From: a virus
Taxonomy: Duplodnaviria; Caudoviricetes
Length of the DNA stretch: 64,000 bases
Strand: one strand, 5' to 3'
IMG/VR virus record: IMGVR_UViG_2751186034_000001
Span: 9,246 to 73,245 of that record
Below, piece by piece: positions 6,474 through 46,824 of the stretch. The number at the start of each line of letters is the position of its first letter. The stretch's first letter is position 1. Both the position numbers and the translations under genes were made by a program. Below the pieces are notes generated by a model. The model did not search any database, was not told the origin of the DNA, and saw nothing but the letters and a program-made list of their open reading frames with translations.

Positions 6474-6980
6474 TTATTGCGTGATGGTCCTTACGTATGC
6501 CTGGCATGCCCGTAAAGCAATCAGTCCTCGATCCCCGTCGCCGGTGATGCCGAGAATTCTTTGAGCATGCGCTGGGTCAAGTTGGGCTCGACGGGCTGCA
6601 TGAACCACGCCGACGGCGCCGGTGGCGGTAGGCACGTTGCAGCCACCGGCTGTATCGGCTGCGTCGATAAGGACTGACAGCCGCACATCAGCAGTGGCAA
6701 GGCGATCGCGCAGAGCAGCTTGGGTACGTTGGGCATCGGTCAATTCCTTGGTGTGTTGTTGGTCCTGGATGGCCAACTGTTGCTCGGTGGCCAGGCGCTT
6801 GTCCTGCTCGGCGCGCGCTTGGGCGGAGGCAGCATTGGTGATCTCCGCCAGGTCCATCTGGTGCAGGTTGACCTGTTCGGCGAGCTTCTTGCCCATCCGC
6901 CAGTCCTGCACCTGCCAGGTGCCAGCGGCGCTAAGGACCATCGCCAGTAGGATCGCGCCCAGAATCTGCCCGGGCGTCAC
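6474..6980 (-). CDS. Rz-like inner-membrane spanin
   Basis: GTG start overlapping the endolysin stop, N-terminal TM, coiled coil, IALRACQAYV C-terminus. Confidence 0.9.
   Translation of the reverse strand: MTPGQILGAILLAMVLSAAGTWQVQDWRMGKKLAEQVNLHQMDLAEITNAASAQARAEQDKRLATEQQLAIQDQQHTKELTDAQRTQAALRDRLATADVRLSVLIDAADTAGGCNVPTATGAVGVVHAARRAQLDPAHAQRILGITGDGDRGLIALRACQAYVRTITQ
6521..6736 (-). CDS. Rz1-like outer-membrane spanin lipoprotein, embedded in Rz
   Basis: Lipobox LMCGC and a proline-rich stretch (CLPPPAPSAW), nested in the alternate frame. Confidence 0.8.
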   Translation of the reverse strand: MPNVPKLLCAIALPLLMCGCQSLSTQPIQPVAATCLPPPAPSAWFMQPVEPNLTQRMLKEFSASPATGIED

Positions 6981-7486
6981 GACATCACCCCGCCCGCCAG
7001 CCGGTACTGCTTCAGCAGATCCTCCAGGCGGTGTTCGCGCTGCCCGTATCCCGCGCCGGGCAGACTGGCCCAGATGTTCCGGCACTTCGCGATAGCCGTT
7101 TCAATCCGCCCGGCCACCACGTCGGGCAAAGCCCTGCACTCGCGTATGTGCTGCAGCGCCAGAAGGTCTTGGCTGATCGGGCTGAAGTCCGGCAGCTTGA
7201 GCAGCGCCTTGTAGTGCGGCCAGTCCTTCAGCATCTGCTGGTATCGGCCGGAAGCATTGGACGTCAGCCCCTTGCTGTTGATGACCTTCGACGCGCGCCC
7301 CTTGGCGAACGGGTGATCTGTGAAGTCCTTGAAGACCTCGGGCTTACGATCGGCTCCGGTGACGATCACGTCGTAACCGTCCATGGCCGTGGCCGGAGAT
7401 GTGCTGGTGCCCTCGGACCAGGCGAGCATGTCGAGGAACGCCAACGCGTTACGCCCGCCGGCGAGTGATTCGGAAAGTCGTGCCAT
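6977..7486 (-). CDS. Endolysin, lambda R-like lysozyme/transglycosylase
   Basis: AFLDMLAWSEGT, ASGRYQ, DFSPISQD and WASLPGAGYGQREH motifs. Confidence 0.9.
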   Translation of the reverse strand: MARLSESLAGGRNALAFLDMLAWSEGTSTSPATAMDGYDVIVTGADRKPEVFKDFTDHPFAKGRASKVINSKGLTSNASGRYQQMLKDWPHYKALLKLPDFSPISQDLLALQHIRECRALPDVVAGRIETAIAKCRNIWASLPGAGYGQREHRLEDLLKQYRLAGGVMS

Positions 7487-36518: not shown

Positions 36519-37918
36519 CAGAAGCCACCCCGTGGATTGAAGTCGTTCAAAAGGGATTTGGAGGACTTGCGGGGCGCTGGCGCGGCGGCTTCTTGCTGCT
36601 GCTCGCGCTGCCCTGCGTAGCTGACGAACCGTGCGAACTCGCCCTGGTGCTGGAGCAGGCAGTGCCCGACCGATGCATGCCGGTGCTTCACCACGTCGAT
36701 CTCGGTCACGCCGCTGCGCCCGAGGTCAGAATCGGCGTCACGGTGGGCAATCATGATGATGTCGGCGTCCTGCTCGATCTCGCCGGAGTCGCGCAGGTCG
36801 GACATTTGTGGCTTCTTGGTCGAGCGCGTTTCGATGCTGCGGTTGAGCTGGGCCAGGACGATAATCGGGATGTCCAGTTCCTTGGCCATCGCCTTGATGC
36901 CTCGACTGATGGCGCCCAGCTCCAGGTTCCGGTTCTGCTGGCGAGAGCTAGCCTCTGGCGCGATCAGGCCGATGTAGTCGATGACAATCAGGTCCAGCGG
37001 CTTGGCGCGGTGCTGAAAACGGGCGATGTTGCGGATGCGGCTCAGCGGCAGGCCGCCCTTCTGGCAGATGCGCAGATCGGCAGAGTGCATGCGGCTCACA
37101 GCGCCGGTGATTCGAGTAATCGATTCGTCGTTGCCCATGGCCTGGCCGGTGTCGATGCTGCCAAGTGTTACCGCCGAAGAAGACGCCAGGCTGCGTTTGG
37201 AAAGCTCCTTGGCAGACATTTCGAGCGAGAACACCAGCGCTGACTTGCTTTCGCGGATGGTCAGGTTTTCGGCGATACCCAGGCCCAGCGTGGTTTTACC
37301 AGTGCCCGGACGCCCAGCGATGATGATGACGTGTGAGCCGCGCAGGCCTTGGACCAGTTCATCCAGATCCTTCAGGCCTGTTGCGTGGCCGTTGATGCCC
37401 TCGCCATTGAAGCGAGCGTCCATTTCGTCAACGACCGGGCCGAGCGCTTCACGCAGGCTGATCACGTCCGGTTCGTCGTCTTCGCTGTTCAGGGCCAAAA
37501 CGGCCTCTTGAGCGTCTGCGATGATCCCGGCCAATGGCCGTGCGTGGCTCGCCATGTCGATGATGGCCTGACCGATCTCCGCGACCTTCCGGGCCTTGGA
37601 ACGCTCCACCACGATACGGGCGTACTCCAGGCCATTCGCGGCGCTTGGCACGCCGTTGTAGATCTCGGAGGCCCGGATCATGGTCAGTTCGCCGCTGGAC
37701 AGTTCGTGGCGAATGTCGGCAATCGAAACAGGGTCTGCTGGCCGGCCGGCGGAACGGGCGGCAAGGATAAGCGTGTAAATCTCGGCAACGTCTTGGTCGT
37801 AGAAGTCGGTCGGGCTGACCATGGCGCCGATTGATTCAATCAGATCGGGTTTGATGAACAGGGAGCCGACAACGCCGTATTCAGCTTCCATCGCAACCAG
37901 TGGGCGATCAGTAATCAT
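36518..37918 (-). CDS. DnaB-like replicative helicase
   Basis: AGRPGTGKT, FSLEMS, IVIDYIGL, AQLNR and SDLRDSGEIEQDAD motifs. Confidence 0.95.
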   Translation of the reverse strand: MITDRPLVAMEAEYGVVGSLFIKPDLIESIGAMVSPTDFYDQDVAEIYTLILAARSAGRPADPVSIADIRHELSSGELTMIRASEIYNGVPSAANGLEYARIVVERSKARKVAEIGQAIIDMASHARPLAGIIADAQEAVLALNSEDDEPDVISLREALGPVVDEMDARFNGEGINGHATGLKDLDELVQGLRGSHVIIIAGRPGTGKTTLGLGIAENLTIRESKSALVFSLEMSAKELSKRSLASSSAVTLGSIDTGQAMGNDESITRITGAVSRMHSADLRICQKGGLPLSRIRNIARFQHRAKPLDLIVIDYIGLIAPEASSRQQNRNLELGAISRGIKAMAKELDIPIIVLAQLNRSIETRSTKKPQMSDLRDSGEIEQDADIIMIAHRDADSDLGRSGVTEIDVVKHRHASVGHCLLQHQGEFARFVSYAGQREQQQEAAAPAPRKSSKSLLNDFNPRGGF

Positions 37919-38739
37919 AGGGCCTCCAACACTTTCAGGACCTTGTCCTGGCGGGTCAGAAACTCAATATCGGCAGTCCAGCCCCGGTCGTTCTCACCGA
38001 TCCAGTGCTTGTTGTTCAGGCAATCGGTGAAGTACGCGGTCCAGAACTCACCCTTGCGGAAGGGATGAACGCCGTTGATCTCCAGGTTCCAGCAGCCCTT
38101 GATCAGGTTCTTGCGTTTGGTCGAGAGCTTCAGGCACTTCGGCAGCTTCTCGCCGCAGACGGTGTTGTAGATCTCAGCGATTCGGCCGTACGGGATTCGA
38201 TCAACCTTGGCTGCAGGAGGTTGATCAGGTTCTGGCGCGCCCTGCTGTTCCGGCTCAGATTCCAAATCCTCGCCGGTCGAAGCGTCAGCGGCGACAACTG
38301 CGTTAGCAGTTAGATTTGTATTTCTGTCTTTTATGTGTGTAATTTTCGACACGGTGGAAGGTGCGCTTTCTACACAGTGTGTAGTTTTCGACACGGTGGA
38401 TTTAGGGTCTATTTTCCATTCGGTTACGGGTAGAAAAGTGATCGGATCACGACTCCCGCCATCACGAAACAGAACCCGCTGACGGATCAGGGAGTTGATT
38501 GCTCGGGATACGTTTGCACGCTCCGACACGGCCTTCTCCTCGTCGCTGTACATCATTTTAGAAATGTAGAGGGCCGCTACCTTCACCGCTTCCTTGTTGT
38601 AACCGCTGGTGAGCCTGTGGATCGCCAGGGCGACACGCAGCTCACGTCCTGAAAGGTCGGCACCTATCAAGGCTTCGTACAGGTCGTTGTCCATCCGGGT
38701 AAATCCCCCGGTATTGCGAAGTGGGATGACATTGCTCAT
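37915..38739 (-). CDS. Replication initiator (lambda O-like)
   Basis: GGFTRMDN...ELRVALAIHRLTSGYNK N-terminus; internal iterons. Confidence 0.9.
   Translation of the reverse strand: MSNVIPLRNTGGFTRMDNDLYEALIGADLSGRELRVALAIHRLTSGYNKEAVKVAALYISKMMYSDEEKAVSERANVSRAINSLIRQRVLFRDGGSRDPITFLPVTEWKIDPKSTVSKTTHCVESAPSTVSKITHIKDRNTNLTANAVVAADASTGEDLESEPEQQGAPEPDQPPAAKVDRIPYGRIAEIYNTVCGEKLPKCLKLSTKRKNLIKGCWNLEINGVHPFRKGEFWTAYFTDCLNNKHWIGENDRGWTADIEFLTRQDKVLKVLEAL
38311..38400. repeat. Replication origin iterons within O
   Basis: TTTTCGACACGGTGGA at 38343-38358 and 38385-38400, a degenerate copy at 38366-38381, and an adjacent AT-rich tract. Confidence 0.7.
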
Positions 38740-38837: not shown

Positions 38838-39002
38838 CTTGGCTGGCTCGCTGTAGGAAAGCCGAACCAGAAACGCAGCCTTCTCTGCTGCGAATTGATG
38901 AAACTCACGGGTGCCCGCCTCCACCGGCACTGAGTCAGCGAGTTTTTCCAAGGCCTCATCGAGACCCTGATTGATATGACGCGCAGGGTGCGGGCGAAAC
39001 AT
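38742..39002 (-). CDS. Hypothetical protein between the CII-like gene and O
   Basis: 86 aa ORF coupled to the upstream gene. Confidence 0.5.
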   Translation of the reverse strand: MFRPHPARHINQGLDEALEKLADSVPVEAGTREFHQFAAEKAAFLVRLSYSEPAKKKARNDCMSHLRASLSRSAATEASISNIRTH

Positions 39003-39478
39003 CAGGCCACCTTCACCGAGGCTTTCAATTGCGCCAGGGCGCTCTCGGCATGATCGATCTCGCGAAGAATCCGGGCGCGATCGACCTGGTCTACTCGACC
39101 ATCAGCCATCGCCGCATGTGTCTCGACGGTGACTTCTGCAAACTCCAGGGTTGCGCGCCCCAGTGCGTCATGAATGTCGATAGCCTTAGGCTGGGCAGTC
39201 TTCACGATCGAATAGCCGAACTCGCCAGCCAGCGCAGCCAGTGGCCGCATGTCCTCGGTATGCAGCAGCAAGGAGTACAGGTGCTTCACGTTGAACCAAG
39301 CGCCGTCGTAGTTCGCGTTGGCGCGCTGGAGCAAGCTCACCGGCGGCATGCTCATCAGTGTCGCGAGATTCTTGGTGTTCGCCTCTTCGACAGAGGTGTC
39401 GCAAGCCCTCAGAAAATCCTGCATACCTAAAACCTCGAATTTCTTTACGTGGCGCCCTGCGGGTGCAGAGGCGATCAT
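39002..39478 (-). CDS. Phage regulatory CII/YmfL-family protein
   Basis: 158 aa after cro; LLQRANANY...LLLHTEDMRPLAALA pattern. Confidence 0.65.
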   Translation of the reverse strand: MIASAPAGRHVKKFEVLGMQDFLRACDTSVEEANTKNLATLMSMPPVSLLQRANANYDGAWFNVKHLYSLLLHTEDMRPLAALAGEFGYSIVKTAQPKAIDIHDALGRATLEFAEVTVETHAAMADGRVDQVDRARILREIDHAESALAQLKASVKVA

Positions 39479-39506: not shown

Positions 39507-39746
39507 TCAGGCGGCGGTCTTCTTCGGATGGGCCTCGGAAAGAAGCCAAGAAGGTTCGAATGGCTTGCCGTTAGCAGAAGCTAGGGCCGCGATTCTTTCT
39601 GCGTACCGTGTCTCTCCGGTGTATTCGGTGCGGGGCAGGCAGTCGGCGGTAAGCCACTTGTAAACGGCCCGAGGCGTCTTGCCGCATGCCAGGGCAACCA
39701 CCGGAACGCCGCCGGCATCATCAATTGATTTCTTAAGCGGGCTCAT
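39507..39746 (-). CDS. cro: Cro-like repressor
   Basis: 79 aa HTH (GGVPVVALACGKTPRAVYKW), divergent from cI. Confidence 0.85.
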   Translation of the reverse strand: MSPLKKSIDDAGGVPVVALACGKTPRAVYKWLTADCLPRTEYTGETRYAERIAALASANGKPFEPSWLLSEAHPKKTAA

Positions 39747-39764: not shown

Positions 39765-39838
39765 ATGAACTTGCAGTACATATTATGTCGGAACTGAAAG
39801 TACATGCAAGGCCATGCGATATTGAACCTATGGTTCAA
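39765..39838. promoter_or_regulatory. OR operators: three 17-bp palindromes
   Basis: ATGAAC-N5-GTACAT (39765), CGGAAC-N5-GTACAT (39789), TTGAAC-N5-GTTCAA (39822). Confidence 0.75.
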
Positions 39839-40690
39839 ATCGAAGAGATACGCGCAGCGTTTGCCTCTCGCCTCAAAAAATCCGTTGCCGCAAAAGGCAT
39901 CGATCAATGGGGCGCGGGCGCTCGGCTGTCTGAAATAGCCAAGGTCACCCCGAAAGCAGCCAGCAAATGGCTGAACGGTGAGAGCATTCCAGGTCCTGCC
40001 AAAATGCAGGCTATAGCTGAGGCGCTCGACGTGAAAATCGAGTGGCTACAGCATGGGGCAGGTGATGAGCCGGGACACTCCAGCTTACACATGACCAAAG
40101 ACCCAGCGAGCGCAGATAGGCTGTCTGCCGCCGATCTAGTGCGTGACATGCTTGAAAAGCACGGAAAGGGTTTGCCAAAAGAAGTACGCCAGCGCATTGC
40201 GTCAGCGGCAAATGAGCCGGCGAGCAACGTCATCACCGTCGACTTCTCCCGCCCCGGCCAGGTCGGTGACGAGGTGTGGATCGCTCACTACGACGTTCGC
40301 GCAGCCATGGGCGGCGGGCAGATCCCGCACGAATACCCGGAAATGCTCCAGGATATCAGGGTCAGCCCCAAGCACCTGCGCGACCTAGGCGTCACCTTCA
40401 AAGAGCACTTCCACCTCAAGATGATCACCGGGTGGGGTCAGTCGATGGCCCCCACGATCAAGGACCGGGATCCGCTGCTGGTAGATATCACGATCCGGGA
40501 GTTCACCGGCGACGGCATCTACCTCTTCTCCCACGACGACATGCTGTACGTGAAGCGCCTGCAGAAGAAAGGCAAGGACCGCTTCAAGATGATTTCGGAC
40601 AACAAGCACCACGCCGCCGAGGATATCCGAGTGGACGACACTCACATTCTGGCTCGGGTGCTTTACGTGTGGAACGGACAACCGGTGTGA
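39830..40690 (+). CDS. cI: CI-like prophage repressor (HTH + S24)
   Basis: HTH (VTPKAASKWLNGESIP), AMGGG cleavage site, GQSM serine and YVKRL lysine. Confidence 0.9.
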   Translation: MVQIEEIRAAFASRLKKSVAAKGIDQWGAGARLSEIAKVTPKAASKWLNGESIPGPAKMQAIAEALDVKIEWLQHGAGDEPGHSSLHMTKDPASADRLSAADLVRDMLEKHGKGLPKEVRQRIASAANEPASNVITVDFSRPGQVGDEVWIAHYDVRAAMGGGQIPHEYPEMLQDIRVSPKHLRDLGVTFKEHFHLKMITGWGQSMAPTIKDRDPLLVDITIREFTGDGIYLFSHDDMLYVKRLQKKGKDRFKMISDNKHHAAEDIRVDDTHILARVLYVWNGQPV

Positions 40691-40694
40691 CGAC

Positions 40695-40931
40695 ATGGCC
40701 CTCACTAAACCCAACCAGCAGCTGCGTCGCGACCTGAAAGATGCTGCGGCCCTGCTCAAGTGGTCGGGCGTCGACCTGAAGCAGGCTGCTGTAAAGCTTT
40801 CTGATGCCGGCCAGGAAGATGACGCTCGCGAACTGATAGCGATCGCTATGAGGTTCCAGGAGGTCGAGGAGCTGATGGATGGGTATGCGGATGAGGTAAA
40901 GACGGCGCATATAACGCGCGTCAGTCGCTAG
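40695..40931 (+). CDS. Small helical protein (paralog of 41164)
   Basis: KPNQQLRRDL...LKWS...GYADEVK. Confidence 0.7.
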   Translation: MALTKPNQQLRRDLKDAAALLKWSGVDLKQAAVKLSDAGQEDDARELIAIAMRFQEVEELMDGYADEVKTAHITRVSR

Positions 40932-41163: not shown

Positions 41164-41409
41164 ATGACCCTCGACAAACCAAACCAAGACCTTAAGCGCG
41201 ACTTGCAAGGCGTCGCCTCCGACCTCAAGTGGTCAGCCGTAGAGCTGATGAGGATTGCGGAGCGGCTGAGCCTTGCAGGGAGCGAGGCGGACGCCCAGGC
41301 CGTGCTGAAGATGTGCACCGTGTTTCATGCTGATGAGGATCGACTGGCGGGTTATGCGGATGAGGTGAAGGACTGCCGGATAATTCGGACTGCGGAACAG
41401 CGCAAATGA
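41164..41409 (+). CDS. Small helical protein (paralog of 40695)
   Basis: KPNQDLKRDL...LKWS...GYADEVK. Confidence 0.7.
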   Translation: MTLDKPNQDLKRDLQGVASDLKWSAVELMRIAERLSLAGSEADAQAVLKMCTVFHADEDRLAGYADEVKDCRIIRTAEQRK

Positions 41410-41621
41410 CTGCATGGCGAGAGCAAAGCTTCTGGAGCAAGGTGGGGGTCATTGCCTGGCTGGCGCTGCTTATGATGATCCCCGGATACTCCGACGCAGC
41501 TGGTCTTAGCTGGGGTTCATCCGGCCGCAAGCGAGTCTTCAGCCCTGGCTTCGTTGTGCTCTGCACCATCGTGGCGGTGGTTGAGCTGATAGCGCTGAAT
41601 CACTTTTATGGCAGCGGATGA
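41406..41621 (+). CDS. Two-TM small membrane protein
   Basis: Two hydrophobic segments; ATGA overlap. Confidence 0.6.
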   Translation: MTAWREQSFWSKVGVIAWLALLMMIPGYSDAAGLSWGSSGRKRVFSPGFVVLCTIVAVVELIALNHFYGSG

Positions 41622-41710
41622 GGTGAATGCGGGAAGCATAATCAGAACGTAACCGGGCCGTACGACTAAGAAGGTTACGCATTTAAATTTAGCTCAGGGA
41701 TAGTGCGGCT

Positions 41711-42454
41711 ATGTCGGACCTAGTAACAGCTGTCGAAATTGTTCGACAAAGCCATCAGGGAATATCCATAAAGCCTTTCATTGTTCGTGCTGACGATGGT
41801 GAAACCTACTTTGTAAAAGGGCTTTCCAAATCTGGCGGTCCGGCACTGATATCGGAGTTACTCAGCGCAGAATTGGGCAAAATTCTCGGGTTGCCTATTC
41901 CTCCATGGAAAAAGATGGTCGTACCTCAAGACCTGATCGACTTCAGCGTGGTTCCAAACGTCTCCGATCTGGAGGGGGGATTAGCCTTCGCATCGCAAGC
42001 GGTCGAAAGCGCCGTAGATTTCAACATTGCCCATCTGAAATCCACCCCTCGAGACCTGATGAGGAAGGTTCTACTTTTTGATTGGTGGGTACAAAATGGT
42101 GACAGGATTCTCGGTCCAATGGGTGGGAACGTGAACCTTCTATTGGACAGCCGTGGCGAGCTAGCCGTCATCGATCACAACATGGCATTTCATAAGTCAT
42201 TCAATCAGGAGGAATTTCTAGAAGAGCACGTATTCTGCGAGTGCCGTAAAGATTTTAGGGACTACCTCGTTCGTCAGGAATACACTGATATCCTCAGCAA
42301 GGCGCTGTCGAACTGGGATACGATCACCACCTTTTTGACCGAAGACTGGCTTTATAGGGATGCAGACCTCATCGACCTGACAGAGCCAACGCTAGCAAGC
42401 CGGCTAGAAATTCTGCAGATGTTCAAGGAAGAGCGATTCTGGGGGGCCCTATGA
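41711..42454 (+). CDS. HipA-like (PI3K/HipA superfamily) kinase
   Basis: YFVK lysine, SELLSAEL glutamate, DWWVQNGDR...NVNLL catalytic loop, IDHNMAF Mg-binding motif. Confidence 0.85.
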   Translation: MSDLVTAVEIVRQSHQGISIKPFIVRADDGETYFVKGLSKSGGPALISELLSAELGKILGLPIPPWKKMVVPQDLIDFSVVPNVSDLEGGLAFASQAVESAVDFNIAHLKSTPRDLMRKVLLFDWWVQNGDRILGPMGGNVNLLLDSRGELAVIDHNMAFHKSFNQEEFLEEHVFCECRKDFRDYLVRQEYTDILSKALSNWDTITTFLTEDWLYRDADLIDLTEPTLASRLEILQMFKEERFWGAL

Positions 42455-43293
42455 GAATCATATGTAATTATTCAATTTTGAGGTTTCTCCCTTACCCAGA
42501 GACGGGTGAGTTTGTAAACATCGGGATAGTGTTGTTGGCCAATAACGGTGATTTTCGTTTCGTCGTAGAGACCAAACGCCAGCGCGTAACAACATTTTTC
42601 CCAAGTCTTGATGCCAAGATTTTTATCAGGGCACGAAAAGAAGTAAATGCTGAGCTTGCTAGGCTCAGCGGCTTTTTCACGAGCCATAGATCTGATCGCC
42701 AAGCCCTCTCTGCGACATTCAGCCACCTGGTGCATCCGCGGGAAACGATGATGCGCTTCAGTGAGCCTGGATCAATAGTTGCGGCAAATTCAGACCAGGC
42801 ACTAAAGGCTCTATTTGACCACTATGTGAAGCACAGCTTTGCAACAAAGGAATATCAAGAAGCAGCTCTAGAGAAACAGTTAGGCAGGCTGTTGGCTGAC
42901 GTTAATCTGAAGCAGCACTACGTGGATCGAAAGCTGGGCTCAGCTGACTACCCAGTGAAATTTCCATTCGTACTGATCCAGGGCGGTAAGCCTGTGCAGG
43001 CAATCAAACCATTGCACCTTGGTCACGAAGAATCCGGAAAAATTTATGAACACGGGGATGCATGGATATCACGAGTGCGACGCCTAAGCGCAAAGGGCCA
43101 GCTACCACCTGATACCTTGTTTGTCGCGGGCCCTCCTATCGCTGGAAAGCCGAAGCTTTTTAAGGCTTATAAAGAAGTTTCAATAGAATTGAGTGCGTTT
43201 CCAGAGGTTCGCGTGATCAGTTCAGAAGAAGATCGAGCAAGCATGGTGAGTCTAATTAAGGAAGGCATTCCAGCCTCGGCTGAAATAGCTTAG
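42451..43293 (+). CDS. DUF3037-domain protein, coupled to the kinase
   Basis: YSILRFLPYPETGEFVNIGIVL N-terminus; ATGA overlap with the kinase stop. Confidence 0.8.
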   Translation: MRIICNYSILRFLPYPETGEFVNIGIVLLANNGDFRFVVETKRQRVTTFFPSLDAKIFIRARKEVNAELARLSGFFTSHRSDRQALSATFSHLVHPRETMMRFSEPGSIVAANSDQALKALFDHYVKHSFATKEYQEAALEKQLGRLLADVNLKQHYVDRKLGSADYPVKFPFVLIQGGKPVQAIKPLHLGHEESGKIYEHGDAWISRVRRLSAKGQLPPDTLFVAGPPIAGKPKLFKAYKEVSIELSAFPEVRVISSEEDRASMVSLIKEGIPASAEIA

Positions 43294-43297
43294 GTAA

Positions 43298-43324
43298 AGC
43301 CCGGCCAAGCGCCGGGCTTCTTGT
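43298..43324 (+). terminator. Hairpin terminator, cassette linker copy 1
   Basis: AGCCCGGC-CAAGC-GCCGGGCTTCTTGT. Confidence 0.7.
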
Positions 43325-43379
43325 TTCTCCACCTTGAGATGATAAAATCTGTGCCCTCCTCTCGAATGGACTCGTTTTT

Positions 43380-43724
43380 ATGCGCCTATCCTTGATGCCA
43401 TTGGCCTTCTGCGCCCTATTCACCTGCATTTCCTTCACCGCCCAAGCAGAAACCCAAAAAGAGAGAGACCTCCACTGCGCGGCCTACTACGAAGTGCTTT
43501 CAGTAGCTGGTGACCAGCCAGACATAAGCCGCAGTCAGTCCTCAAGAGCCTCCTATGTACTATTGGTGCATGCTGGCTATACCCCGGAGGCTCAGGAAGA
43601 AGTTGCGCAAAAAATGGTGGAATTGCACAAAGAGACACCAGGGCGGATGACGCCAGCTAGCACTGCCAAGCTGCGTGAAAAATACGACGCCGAATGCAAA
43701 GTCCTTCTGAAGGCCGCCATGTGA
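43380..43724 (+). CDS. Secreted helical protein
   Basis: Sec signal ending AQA, with two Cys in the mature part. Confidence 0.7.
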   Translation: MRLSLMPLAFCALFTCISFTAQAETQKERDLHCAAYYEVLSVAGDQPDISRSQSSRASYVLLVHAGYTPEAQEEVAQKMVELHKETPGRMTPASTAKLREKYDAECKVLLKAAM

Positions 43725-43784
43725 AGATCCTGGTACTTGTGAGAGCTGTTACCCTGGCGGTAGCAGCATAAGCAGCCATCATCG

Positions 43785-43811
43785 AGCCCGGCCCTGCGCC
43801 GGGCTTCTTGT
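43785..43811 (+). terminator. Hairpin terminator, cassette linker copy 2
   Basis: AGCCCGGC-CCTGC-GCCGGGCTTCTTGT. Confidence 0.7.
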
Positions 43812-43873
43812 ATCTGGCGAACGCTCTGCTCTGCTATTGTGGCGCCCTCTTGATGCAATGGAAGCAAAGAAGA

Positions 43874-44200
43874 ATGGACTCATGGAAGACTCTAGCGATC
43901 GCACTGCTGGCATCGGTCAGCACGCAGGCCGTATCAGGTGATGGCGCCAACCCTATCGCTGCCGCGATATTTCTCACAATCTCCGCGCCAACTATTTTAA
44001 TTGGCGCGACCACATCTCTCACAACCGAGCCGCCTAAGATTTTCAAATCGGCGAAGACCGACGCTCTGGCGTTCATTGGTTCGGATGGCGAGATCCGCGG
44101 TGCCCAGTTTGAGCAAGCCTCCAGGTACTACCGCTCGACCAGCGCACCGCCGCTGATGTCAGACACGCAACTGGCCAGGGCGATCGCAACTTCCCTCTGA
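43874..44200 (+). CDS. DUF2388-family secreted protein
   Basis: AKTDALAFIGSDGEIRGAQFEQA...SDTQLARAI motif after a signal peptide. Confidence 0.8.
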   Translation: MDSWKTLAIALLASVSTQAVSGDGANPIAAAIFLTISAPTILIGATTSLTTEPPKIFKSAKTDALAFIGSDGEIRGAQFEQASRYYRSTSAPPLMSDTQLARAIATSL

Positions 44201-44246
44201 CAGCCACTTCCCAGCCGTCCACGGCGCCGGCCTTCTTGTATCTGCC

Positions 44247-44468
44247 CTACCCAGGTCCGCCCATACACTCGGAGGTGCTGGCAAGCAATGTTCCCGCCTC
44301 CCTTACAAGTCTTACCCATTCGTCGCTGGTGATGAGCTCGGCAAGCTCCATGGCGTCAGCCCGCCGCAACAAGCCAAAATACTTAACCTCTGCGTCCATT
44401 TGACTTCCAGCAAGTGCAAACAGGTCTCGCCAGGCTGTCATAGCCAGTCTTCGCTGCGCCTCTCTCAT
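44247..44468 (-). CDS. Small hypothetical protein (paralog family member)
   Basis: 73 aa from MREAQ; W...DAE.KY..L.RRADAM...I..DEW..LV.EA. Confidence 0.65.
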   Translation of the reverse strand: MREAQRRLAMTAWRDLFALAGSQMDAEVKYFGLLRRADAMELAELITSDEWVRLVREAGTLLASTSECMGGPG

Positions 44469-44909
44469 TGAGGGCCCCTGATGATGAGATGACTCAGTAT
44501 GTATCAGGTTGCCGGGGACGTTCGGAATGATCTCGTAATTGCCGACAAATGGTGGCATTACGCCATGAACGGCAAGATATTGGCTTAGCCACGCTGAATA
44601 ATCGGCGCCCTAGTTGTTACAAAGCGCCCGCCCCGTGCGGGCTTTCTGCTTTTGCGACATCCTTTTCACCTGGCATATTCAGGATAGCGGCCATGCTCTC
44701 CATTCCTTCTACTGGAGACCAAATCGTTGCCCTTCCCCGGATACTCACTGACCTGACTCAATGGATATCCCGGCGTAGAGCAGCGCTTCTTGTTTCTAGA
44801 TGACGATCGGATAGTTTTTCCTCGGTTAACTATCAACCTGCTTCTATGTACATTGATGTCATTATGCCGCATAACGGTCTTATCGCATTTATACGCAGGG
44901 GATGCCTAA

Positions 44910-45179
44910 GTGAAAGTCTTTATGCTGGGTATCCTGATCCCACTCTGCGAATTCAGCTATTTAGGTACTAGCGGCGACAACGAGGTCGCGCTGTTTGCCA
45001 ACATTCTGTTCTTCTCAAGCGCTACAGCTCTGTATTTCTACCCATCAATATGCGCAATGGGCCATACCAGTCAAACTCGCTTATCGATCTTCAAGCTGAA
45101 TCTGCTAGCTGGCTGGACCGGAGTCGGTTGGTGTTTAGCGCTATATCAGGCCTTGGCGTTGCCGCTGGCGAGCGAGTAA
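44910..45179 (+). CDS. T4 Imm-like superinfection immunity protein
   Basis: LYFYPSICA...IFKLNLLAGWTGVGW motif. Confidence 0.8.
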   Translation: MKVFMLGILIPLCEFSYLGTSGDNEVALFANILFFSSATALYFYPSICAMGHTSQTRLSIFKLNLLAGWTGVGWCLALYQALALPLASE

Positions 45180-45374
45180 TTCGAGCCCGACTTGTTGTCT
45201 CCGCCCTTCCTTGACCGCTTTCTAACTTGGTCTACGATCAAATAGTCGAGCTGCAAGTCCCCCTCCGTGCTCGACCTTAGCTCGCATATGCGAGCTTTTT
45301 TGTTTGCTTCCCGATTTGCGACAAAGGATCGAGCTCTACGGCGGTAACGACGGATGAGCGAGCCACTAGGGTGT

Positions 45375-45596
45375 TTAAGGGCCCACGTCATTCTCGCTAC
45401 CTTCCCCCACCAAAATTATGGACGCGTCACGAACAAGGTGACGCCACTCGGCAGGGCTGATGATGCCTGCTTGCTCTAAAGAATCAGCCATCTGGAGGAG
45501 CAGATCGTAAAGCTCTTCGGGGTCGATGTAGAGCTTTGGTTCTTCGAGCATGCGGTGCCAAGTGGCCAGCGCAATTACTTTACTGTCTTTGCTCAT
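45375..45596 (-). CDS. Small hypothetical protein (paralog family member)
   Basis: 73 aa from MSKDSK; W...DPEELY..L.QMADSL...I..AEW..LV.DA. Confidence 0.65.
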   Translation of the reverse strand: MSKDSKVIALATWHRMLEEPKLYIDPEELYDLLLQMADSLEQAGIISPAEWRHLVRDASIILVGEGSENDVGP

Positions 45597-45716
45597 AACG
45601 ACACGCCGAGTATTTTTTATTGGGTTAGCCAAGCTTCGTCTTTCTAGCCGCGGCAGCTCTAATAGTAGCTGTTCGCCACGAATGGTAAAGTGCGGGCTCA
45701 ATTAAGGAGGGAACAA

Positions 45717-46292
45717 ATGAAGGGATTTGGAACGTTCGCACTGATCGTCGGGATATGCTGGCTGGTCTTCGCGCTGAGCATGGATGTATCCGTGGCAACC
45801 GGTGCCGGCGGCCGAGTGAACAACATGGGGCTGATGGCCGACCGGCAGATCCATACGATTGTCGGCGGCATGATCGCGCTCGCCGGCCTGCTCATGGTTT
45901 TGCTGGGCGGCAAAGGCTCCCGTACTGCCACCCAGGTAGAGAAAGATACTCGCTCCTGCCCTATGTGTGCCGAGAGCATCAAGAATGCTGCGGTCAAGTG
46001 CAAGCACTGCGGCGCCGATATTGAGCCAGTAGCAGCCCCGCGCCCTAAAAATGGATGGGTTGCATCAACTGCCTGCCGTGACGAAGAAGAACAGCAGCGA
46101 ACCATTGAGGCAATTGCCAGCACCGGACTTCCGGTTGTTCCAATGATCGGTCTGGCAGTGGGTGCCGGCCCATTTGAAACGAAAGAAGAGGCAAAACAGG
46201 CCCTGGTCACTATGCGTGATGGCCCCAGGTTGTTCAGCGAGATCGTCTACAGAGACTCGGTGAGCGGCAAGTACCCACCGATTACAGACTGA
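45717..46292 (+). CDS. Two-TM, zinc ribbon and SPOR-like domain protein
   Basis: AGGAGG RBS; two TMs; CPMC...CKHC; VGAGPFETKEEAKQAL. Confidence 0.65.
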   Translation: MKGFGTFALIVGICWLVFALSMDVSVATGAGGRVNNMGLMADRQIHTIVGGMIALAGLLMVLLGGKGSRTATQVEKDTRSCPMCAESIKNAAVKCKHCGADIEPVAAPRPKNGWVASTACRDEEEQQRTIEAIASTGLPVVPMIGLAVGAGPFETKEEAKQALVTMRDGPRLFSEIVYRDSVSGKYPPITD

Positions 46293-46309
46293 CCAACCAT
46301 TTTTTAGTG

Positions 46310-46333
46310 AGCCCGCCAAGCGCGGGCTTTTTC
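46310..46333. terminator. Terminator between convergent genes (related linker hairpin)
   Basis: AGCCCGC-CAAGC-GCGGGCTTTTT. Confidence 0.75.
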
Positions 46334-46340
46334 TTGTCAG

Positions 46341-46764: not shown

Positions 46765-46824
46765 GTGAACCAGAAAATTATGTACTTTTGGTACTTGACT
46801 GAATGTGAACCTGTAGTTCATATT
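46765..46824 (+). promoter_or_regulatory. OL operators and PL promoter
   Basis: ATGTAC-N5-GTACTT (46780) and GTGAAC-N5-GTTCAT (46805); TTGACT at 46795 with CATATT about 18 nt downstream. Confidence 0.7.

What the first reader, a model, noticed from the sequence alone, without database searches (positions are those of the whole stretch)
41711..43293. HipA-like kinase plus DUF3037 two-gene system in the rex position: candidate anti-phage kinase module
Seen: an intact kinase motif set, ATGA-coupled to a 280-aa DUF3037 protein, lower GC than the phage core, own terminator, located between cI and OL. There is no HipB-like HTH partner. Known: this slot holds exclusion systems in lambdoid phages (rexAB in lambda, the stk kinase in 933W), and HipA-family kinases are TA toxins. 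Inference: a TA-like abortive infection system in which DUF3037 is the antitoxin or sensor, or a phosphorylation-gated effector; its C-terminal half may be a degenerate restriction-endonuclease-like fold. I know of no functional characterisation, but could not search.
Basis: partly seen in the sequence, partly recalled or inferred. Interest (0 to 1): 0.78.

Follow-up and report, generated by a model that had tools for sequence, protein, structure and literature searches.

The report
Prophage HipAD kinase defence pair
Right after its repressor gene, this Pseudomonas prophage carries a toxin-like kinase and its partner protein; the pair belongs to the HipAD anti-phage system, which was shown to work in E. 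coli in 2025-2026, so it is a sound new example of a known system.

Summary
Two genes overlap by ATGA: 41711-42454 (247 aa, Pfam HipA_2, E 8e-64) and 42451-43293 (280 aa, DUF3037, E 4e-22). They form a 1.7-kb low-GC module that ends in a hairpin terminator. The module lies between a cI-type repressor gene and the left operator.

The pair is called HipAD, also DS-6 or PADLOC candidate PDC-M66. In E. coli phage PhiR5_1 (PV340545.1), genes annotated 'HipA toxin' and 'HipD antitoxin' sit in the same order, with the same 4-bp overlap, directly after cI. They are 31% and 33% identical to ours (E 2e-33 and 9e-32).

Published tests on relatives show three things:
- Deleting HipA abolishes defence.
- A catalytic mutant of the kinase loses defence.
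- Deleting DUF3037 is toxic.

Added here:
- 78 of 79 related viral loci keep the gene pair, and 56 of those 78 have an S24 repressor gene within 500 nt upstream.
- The kinase model matches HipA, CtkA and PI4K-II folds.
- The C-terminal half of HipD has a restriction-endonuclease-like fold whose acidic catalytic residues are replaced across the family.

The kinase's target and the trigger were not found in what I could read. The scan had already noted this same stretch in an overlapping window.

The parts
39785..40690 (+). cI-type prophage repressor (HTH_3 plus Peptidase_S24). It heads the strand on which hipAD lies.
   Evidence: Pfam PF00717 E 9.5e-18 and PF01381 E 5e-8. It is divergent from a Cro-like gene (39507-39746, -) and a CII-like gene (39002-39478, -).
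39766..39783 (+). Operator-like 18-mer in the cro/cI intergenic region (OR).
   Evidence: TGAACTTGCAGTACATAT. The word TGAACnTGnAGTnCATAT occurs only twice in the window, against 0.05 expected. The pattern was derived from these two sites.
41614..41710 (+). Conserved leader and left edge of the hipAD cassette. It contains the inverted repeat CGTAACC-N18-GGTTACG at 41648-41679. No sigma-70 consensus promoter was found.
   Evidence: blastn similarity to L002, L046 and L003 starts at 41614-41621. Alignment A3. Inverted repeat. No promoter-like site was scored here.
41711..42454 (+). hipA: a compact 247-aa HipA_2-family Ser/Thr-kinase-like protein, the predicted toxin.
   Evidence: PF20613 E 8.2e-64. 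phrog_3162 E 6e-66. PDC-M66A E 8e-8. 31% identity to PhiR5_1 HipA, E 2e-33. AF2 pLDDT 92. Fold Z 13.6 to PI4KII-alpha, 12.9 to CtkA, 12.4 to HipA 4pu3, 11.3 to HipT. Invariant K36, D131, N142 and D155.
42451..43293 (+). hipD: a 280-aa two-domain protein, the predicted antitoxin/regulator. It has an N-terminal DUF3037 domain (1-127) and a C-terminal degenerate PD-(D/E)xK-like domain (130-278).
   Evidence: PF11236 E 4.2e-22. phrog_5137 E 3e-69. PDC-M66B E 4e-19. 33% identity to PhiR5_1 HipD, E 9e-32. AF2 pLDDT 95. C-domain Z 10.1 to BstEII and 8.6 to I-Bth0305I. Foldseek prob 0.99 to Can2. E137, P172-F173 and A184-x-K186 are conserved.
43297..43329 (+). Intrinsic-terminator-like hairpin and right edge of the cassette.
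   Evidence: 9-bp stem with 7 GC pairs and tail CTTGTTTCTC. blastn similarity to L002 and L046 ends at 43328.
46806..46823 (+). Second copy of the operator-like word, the putative OL. It lies inside a promoter-like site at 46795-46824 that faces the RecT/RecE early-left operon.

Best explanation
The two genes are a Pseudomonas-prophage member of the HipAD system (also called DS-6 or PADLOC PDC-M66). This is a two-gene, toxin-antitoxin-type anti-phage defence carried in the immunity region of temperate phages.

Shown here:
- The anatomy, the homology to the annotated HipA/HipD of E. coli phage PhiR5_1, and an intact kinase active site.
- A kinase fold of the HipA/CtkA/PI4K-II type.
- A two-domain HipD.
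- Conserved placement behind cI.

Taken from published experiments on relatives: the kinase is needed for defence, its catalytic residue is needed, and loss of the DUF3037 protein is toxic.

Inferred for this locus:
- In the lysogen the pair is expressed together with, or just downstream of, the repressor. I found no sigma-70 promoter of its own.
- HipD binds HipA and holds it inactive.
- Infection by another phage releases or activates the kinase. The kinase then phosphorylates an essential host protein, or possibly a phage protein, and stops growth before the invader completes its cycle. This protects the lysogen population and the resident prophage.
- The C-terminal domain of HipD has lost its nuclease activity. 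It most likely serves in binding, either DNA or a phage cue.
For: - Family and order: Pfam HipA_2 plus DUF3037 in that order, with an ATGA overlap.
- Known models: PADLOC PDC-M66A/B match. PHROGs 3162 and 5137 match at E-66 and E-69.
- Annotated relative: PV340545.1 has cI, then HipA toxin, then HipD antitoxin, with the same overlap. BLASTP gives 31% over 219 aa at E 2e-33 and 33% over 242 aa at E 9e-32. The Pfam architecture is the same.
- Experiments on relatives: PMC12548924 and PMC13092281.
- Kinase: catalytic residues are invariant and the fold matches known kinases.
- Conservation of the pair: 229 IMG/VR contigs encode HipD relatives. In 78 of 79 fetched loci hipA lies immediately upstream and overlapping. 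In 56 of those 78 a cI-like gene lies within 500 nt upstream on the same strand, median 77 nt. Ten of ten sampled cI-like proteins are Peptidase_S24.
- Mobility: the discrete cassette 41614-43328 is shared at 87-95% identity among phages with different flanks and has low GC.
Against: - Identity to the validated E. coli pair is only 31-33%, so function in Pseudomonas is inferred and not shown.
- The PADLOC hit for the kinase is weak and partial (E 8e-8, residues 4-161).
- The DUF1829 domain reported for DS-6B gives no Pfam hit in our HipD. It gives none in the PhiR5_1 HipD either.
- In the papers I could read, abortive infection is a hypothesis. No target or trigger is given there, and the primary HipAD paper (Brenes and Laub 2025) was not available.
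- Four small ORFs separate cI from hipA here, so co-transcription with cI is uncertain.
Confidence: 0.85

Rival explanations
1. The pair is mainly an addiction or stabilisation module for the prophage. It would kill cells that lose or partly delete the element, and phage defence would be a side effect or absent in the native host.
For: Toxin-antitoxin behaviour is documented: deleting DUF3037 is toxic. The pair sits next to the gene that maintains lysogeny. It travels as a cassette among prophages.
Against: Two different members of the family defended against phages when cloned away from any prophage. In lambdoid phages the slot after cI holds exclusion genes such as rexAB (established knowledge).
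Confidence: 0.07
2. The kinase acts directly on a protein of the incoming phage, or on a host factor the phage needs. It would block infection without killing the cell. HipD would be a sensor or adaptor and not an antitoxin.
For: The target is unknown in everything I could read. HipD is large (280 aa, two domains). It carries a conserved inactivated nuclease-like domain suited to binding a ligand. AlphaFold3 in PMC13092281 predicted DNA contact only weakly (ipTM 0.67).
Against: Deleting DUF3037 made the construct toxic without any phage present. That result points to a host target and a neutralising role for HipD.
Confidence: 0.06
3. This copy is an inactive relic: homologous to HipAD but no longer expressed or functional.
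For: No sigma-70-like promoter was scored upstream. The copy lies 1 kb from cI, unlike most relatives.
Against: Both frames are intact and full length. All invariant kinase residues are kept. The models are confident, with pLDDT 92 and 95. Copies at 92-95% nucleotide identity and 98-99% HipD protein identity occur in other proviruses with both frames open.
Confidence: 0.02

Closest known systems
HipAD (HipA toxin / HipD antitoxin) of Escherichia phage PhiR5_1, GenBank PV340545.1. Equals DS-6 of DefensePredictor (PMC13092281) and is attributed there to Brenes and Laub 2025, Cell Host Microbe 33:1004.
   Same: The Pfam families are the same (PF20613 then PF11236). Protein sizes are close (249 and 275 aa against 247 and 280 aa). 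The 4-bp overlap, the strand and the side of cI are the same. Homology covers nearly the full length.
   Different: Identity is only 31-33%. The host is Pseudomonas and not E. coli. Here 1 kb with four small ORFs separates cI from hipA, against 122 nt in PhiR5_1. Extra cargo follows hipD before OL.
HipA-like/DUF3037 pair next to Retron-Sda1 (PLoS Biol 2025, PMC12548924); PADLOC candidate PDC-M66.
   Same: It is a two-gene HipA-like plus DUF3037 system. PADLOC PDC-M66A/B profiles match our proteins. That paper gives the genetic evidence for the toxin and antitoxin roles.
   Different: That copy sits beside a type III retron reverse transcriptase, not in a prophage immunity region. I could not compare the sequences because no reference to them was available.
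Canonical HipBA and HipBST type II toxin-antitoxin kinases.
   Same: The kinase core has the same fold type: Z 12.4 to S. oneidensis HipA, 11.3 to HipT and 10.7 to E. coli HipA. It has an equivalent catalytic Lys, Asp, Asn and Asp. Both follow the logic of a toxic kinase held by a partner.
   Different: There is no sequence-level match to any solved HipA, even with a profile. The protein has 247 aa and lacks the HipA N-terminal subdomain; the match starts at HipA residue 147. The partner is downstream and is not an HTH protein. Gene order is reversed relative to hipBA.
rexAB of phage lambda.
   Same: It occupies the same genomic slot, between cI and OL on the cI strand. It has the same presumed role as a lysogen-expressed exclusion system.
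   Different: There is no homology. Rex is a sensor plus an ion channel, not a kinase.

Membership tests
HipAD / DS-6 / PDC-M66 | First gene encodes a HipA_2 (PF20613) kinase-like protein. | tested here: met
   E 8.2e-64, 238 of 240 profile positions.
HipAD / DS-6 / PDC-M66 | Second gene, immediately downstream on the same strand, encodes a DUF3037 (PF11236) protein of about 275 aa. | tested here: met
   E 4.2e-22; 280 aa; ATGA overlap.
HipAD / DS-6 / PDC-M66 | Homology of both proteins to an annotated or validated pair. | tested here: met
   Against PV340545.1 HipA and HipD: E 2e-33 and 9e-32, 31% and 33% identity.
HipAD / DS-6 / PDC-M66 | Match to both PADLOC PDC-M66 profiles. | tested here: met
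   M66A E 7.8e-8 (partial, residues 4-161); M66B E 3.9e-19. PADLOC's own calling thresholds were not applied.
HipAD / DS-6 / PDC-M66 | Kinase catalytic residues present (published work shows a catalytic mutant loses defence). | tested here: met
   K36, D131, N142 and D155 are invariant in 28 homologues. Which residue the paper mutated is not known to me.
HipAD / DS-6 / PDC-M66 | Second protein also carries DUF1829, as stated for DS-6B. | tested here: inconclusive
   No Pfam DUF1829 hit at E up to 10 in our HipD or in PhiR5_1 HipD. The C-terminal domain is conserved across the family and has a PD-(D/E)xK-like fold.
HipAD / DS-6 / PDC-M66 | Kinase toxic alone, neutralised by HipD, and the pair protects against phage. 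| not testable with these tools
   Needs bench work. Known only for relatives.
Canonical HipBA type II TA | Sequence membership in the HipA families, and similarity to solved HipA. | tested here: not met
   Only PF20613 matches. phmmer and a profile search of PDB sequences find no HipA. Only the fold is shared.
Canonical HipBA type II TA | HipB-type HTH antitoxin encoded upstream. | tested here: not met
   The upstream small ORFs have no HTH match. The partner lies downstream and is DUF3037.
PD-(D/E)xK nucleases (HipD residues 130-278) | Alpha-beta-beta-beta-alpha-beta core fold. | tested here: met
   Secondary-structure order H133-150, E157-164, E167-177, E180-189, H195-214, E221-227. BstEII Z 10.1, rmsd 3.1, 131 aligned; I-Bth0305I Z 8.6; PspGI and NgoMIV at 7.5-7.8. 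Can2, SfsA and BstEII by Foldseek. Unrelated alpha/beta folds reach Z of about 7, so support is moderate.
PD-(D/E)xK nucleases (HipD residues 130-278) | Catalytic Asp on strand 2 and (D/E)xK on strand 3. | tested here: not met
   In 49 homologues the positions read P172 (44 of 49), then F173 (F39, L9, Y1), and A/V/I184, I185, K186 (K44, R5). The positions were assigned from strand order, not from a residue-level superposition.

The most novel reading that the evidence does not exclude
The inactivated restriction-endonuclease-like domain of HipD could be the sensor of the system. It would recognise a DNA form or a phage protein made during infection and thereby release the kinase. The compact HipA_2 kinase would have a target different from the tRNA synthetases hit by classical HipA and HipT. 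A further possibility is that tight linkage to cI reflects regulatory coupling to the lysis-lysogeny switch, and not just a convenient cargo slot.
Probability: 0.25. Interest if true: 0.55.

Novelty: new member of a known kind. Interest (0 to 1): 0.25.

Why it matters
This locus extends an experimentally validated E. coli defence system to Pseudomonas prophages.

It also shows that the system is a typical occupant of the slot behind the repressor gene: 56 of 78 related viral loci have this layout. That makes it a functional counterpart of lambda rexAB.

It is a useful annotation. NCBI names these proteins only 'HipA family kinase' and 'DUF3037 domain-containing protein'.

It points to the open questions for the family, namely the kinase's target, the trigger, and the role of the dead nuclease-like domain. 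It is not a discovery of a new kind of system.

Tried and rejected
- Sequence searches of both proteins against solved structures, singly and with a profile of the kinase, gave only chance-level hits. Kinship to HipA therefore rests on Pfam naming and on fold.
- NCBIfam gave nothing meaningful.
- Foldseek on the whole HipD model gave no match at E <= 0.001. The VIA search covered only residues 130-278, so the N-terminal DUF3037 domain remains without a tested fold.
- The ESM Atlas search of residues 1-130 gave only scores of 0.80 or less to unnamed clusters.
- The primary HipAD paper (Brenes and Laub 2025) is not held. Searches for 'HipAD' and 'HipD' returned almost only unrelated uses of those words, and two citing papers added nothing on mechanism.
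These are viral by construction and cannot show how often the pair occurs outside prophages.
- I looked for a promoter of its own upstream of hipA and found no sigma-70 consensus site. The 7-bp inverted repeat in the leader is only partly conserved in the closest relatives, so I do not claim it as an operator.
- I considered the small ORFs between cI and hipA as a third component and rejected the idea. Most related loci lack them, and the median cI-hipA gap is 77 nt.

Full report
**What is there**

The window has two + strand ORFs, 41711..42454 (247 aa) and 42451..43293 (280 aa). They overlap by the four bases ATGA.

- The first ORF matches Pfam HipA_2 (PF20613) over its whole length, E 8.2e-64.
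- The second matches DUF3037 (PF11236) over residues 7-126, E 4.2e-22.
- PHROGs places them in phrog_3162 and phrog_5137, at E 6e-66 and 3e-69, both of unknown function.
- NCBIfam has no model for either.
- GC content falls to 0.47-0.50 across 41600-43400, against 0.55-0.63 on either side.
- A 9-bp GC-rich hairpin with a T-rich tail starts 4 nt after the second stop codon.

**Setting**

The layout is lambdoid.

- Upstream on the same strand lies a cI-type repressor, 39785-40690, with HTH_3 and Peptidase_S24 domains.
- It faces a Cro-like gene (39507-39746, -), a CII-like gene (39002-39478, -) and a further ORF (37915-38739, -) that I did not scan against any library.
- The word TGAACnTGnAGTnCATAT occurs exactly twice in 64 kb, against 0.05 expected. 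One copy is at 39766, between cro and cI. The other is at 46806. I derived the pattern from those two sites.
- The second copy lies inside a promoter-like site at 46795-46824.
- Downstream on the + strand lie RecT-like and RecE-like genes.

However, 1020 nt with four small ORFs separate cI from hipA, and about 3.4 kb of further cargo follows the terminator.

**It is a known system**

- PADLOC-DB profiles PDC-M66A and PDC-M66B match the two proteins, at E 7.8e-8 and 3.9e-19.
- PLoS Biol 2025 (PMC12548924) studied a HipA-like/DUF3037 pair beside Retron-Sda1 and identified it as PDC-M66. Deleting HipA abolished defence against phage Bas51. Deleting DUF3037 was toxic. The retron parts were dispensable. 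The authors concluded that the pair is a stand-alone defence with HipA as a toxin neutralised by DUF3037.
- The DefensePredictor paper (PMC13092281) validated the pair as DS-6. A catalytic mutant of the kinase lost defence. AlphaFold3 predicted a DS-6A/DS-6B complex (ipTM 0.76-0.79). The system had been found independently and renamed HipAD by Brenes and Laub 2025. That paper is not in the library.

**Direct comparison**

A tblastn search of phage records with our DUF3037 protein found Escherichia phage PhiR5_1, PV340545.1. Its annotation reads cI, 'HipA toxin', 'HipD antitoxin', all on one strand. HipA and HipD overlap by 4 bp, and Kil, Gam, Bet and exonuclease genes follow.

- Our kinase is 31% identical to that HipA over 219 residues, E 2e-33.
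- Our second protein is 33% identical to that HipD over 242 residues, E 9e-32.
- Both E. coli proteins have the same Pfam families as ours.

I therefore file the locus as a member of HipAD.

**The kinase**

In an alignment of 28 homologues down to 31% identity, these residues are invariant: K36, E49, D124, N129, D131, R132, N140, N142, D155 and H156. This is the expected set of ATP-binding lysine, catalytic-loop Asp and Asn, and metal-binding Asp.

The AlphaFold2 model is confident, with pLDDT 92 and pTM 0.89. Its best structural matches are:

| Match | Z |
|---|---|
| PI4K II-alpha | 13.6 |
| Helicobacter CtkA | 12.9 |
| Shewanella HipA | 12.4 |
| Fam20 | 12.2 |
| HipT | 11.3 |
| E. coli HipA | 10.7 |

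 The match to HipA begins at HipA residue 147, so this is a minimal kinase core without the HipA N-terminal subdomain. No solved HipA is found by sequence, even with a profile. It works like a HipA, but by sequence it is not a member of the canonical HipA family.

**HipD**

An exhaustive HMMER search found 737 cluster representatives at E <= 0.001. Nearly all are 265-290 aa long and align over both halves, so the two-domain form is the rule.

The model has pLDDT 95 and shows two domains:

- An N-terminal domain, residues 1-127, which is DUF3037.
- A C-terminal domain with the order helix, three strands, helix, strand, helix, strand, helix.

The C-terminal domain matches restriction and homing endonucleases: BstEII (Z 10.1, 131 residues aligned, rmsd 3.1), I-Bth0305I (Z 8.6), and PspGI, NgoMIV, McrC, Vsr and CdiA-CT at Z 7-8. 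Foldseek finds Can2, SfsA and BstEII. Unrelated alpha/beta folds also reach about Z 7, so this support is moderate.

Where a PD-(D/E)xK enzyme has Asp on strand 2 and (D/E)xK on strand 3, 49 HipD homologues have P172-F173 and A/V184-I185-K186. The lysine and an upstream glutamate (E137) are kept. The two acidic residues are replaced by hydrophobic ones throughout the family.

I assigned the positions from strand order, not from a superposition.

The DUF1829 domain reported for DS-6B gave no Pfam hit in our protein or in the PhiR5_1 protein.

**Conservation of the arrangement**

IMG/VR holds 229 viral contigs that encode a HipD relative. I fetched 80 of them and found a complete HipD ORF in 79.

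- 78 of the 79 have a HipA_2 gene immediately upstream and overlapping.
- 56 of those 78 have a cI-like gene within 500 nt upstream on the same strand, and 65 have one within 2 kb. The median gap is 77 nt.
- Ten of ten sampled cI-like proteins carry Peptidase_S24.

The slot behind the repressor is therefore the usual home of this system in temperate phages. These loci are the best 80 hits and many are from Pseudomonas, so the fractions are descriptive only.

**A mobile cassette**

Window 41614-43328 is 92-95% identical to two other proviruses (L002, L046) and 87% identical to a third (L003). The flanks differ. In L036 the homologue of our OL region follows hipD within about 100 nt. The cassette edges coincide with the dip in GC content.

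**Mechanism**

- Shown here: intact genes, an intact active site, the two folds, and the conserved arrangement.
- Published for relatives: the kinase is required, its catalytic residue is required, and loss of HipD is toxic.
- Inferred: HipD binds and silences HipA in the lysogen; infection frees the kinase; phosphorylation of an essential target stops growth and aborts the infection.

The target and trigger are unknown to me. I found no sigma-70 promoter upstream of hipA. The leader's inverted repeat is only partly conserved. Whether the pair is transcribed with cI stays open.

**Verdict**

The system has been described and validated since 2025, and an existing defence model covers it. It is a new member of a known kind.

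Noticed in passing
window 40695-40931 and 41164-41409: Two small ORFs of 78 and 81 aa are 47% identical paralogues. Both fall in phrog_6388 (unknown function). A relative sits between cI and hipA in 11 of 79 related IMG/VR loci.
   Followed up: partly
window 41406-41621: A 71-aa ORF with two hydrophobic stretches (phrog_29612) lies just upstream of the hipAD cassette. It was found in only two other loci, L017 and L020. It may be a small membrane protein of the immunity region.
   Followed up: partly
window 43297-43319, 43784-43806, 46309-46329: Three related GC-rich hairpins (GCCCGG..CGCCGGGCTT followed by CTTGT/TTTCT) each close a cargo gene between hipD and OL. The same hairpin recurs after hipD in other proviruses (blastn matches to 43784-43816).
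   Followed up: partly
window 43380-46340: Extra cargo lies between the hipAD terminator and OL: a 114-aa protein with a signal-peptide-like start, a DUF2388 protein (43808-44200), and a 200-aa membrane/zinc-ribbon protein (45690-46292, phrog_8032). In L002 the homologue of the last gene follows hipD directly, so 43330-45675 looks like a later insertion.
   Followed up: partly
window 39766-39783 and 46806-46823: An 18-nt operator-like word is shared by the cro/cI intergenic region and a promoter-like site about 6 kb downstream. These are probably the OR and OL sites for the cI repressor.
   Followed up: partly
L001 (PV340545.1) 6828-7253: In E. coli phage PhiR5_1 a 425-nt unannotated gap separates hipD from kil. 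No N gene is annotated there.
   Followed up: no
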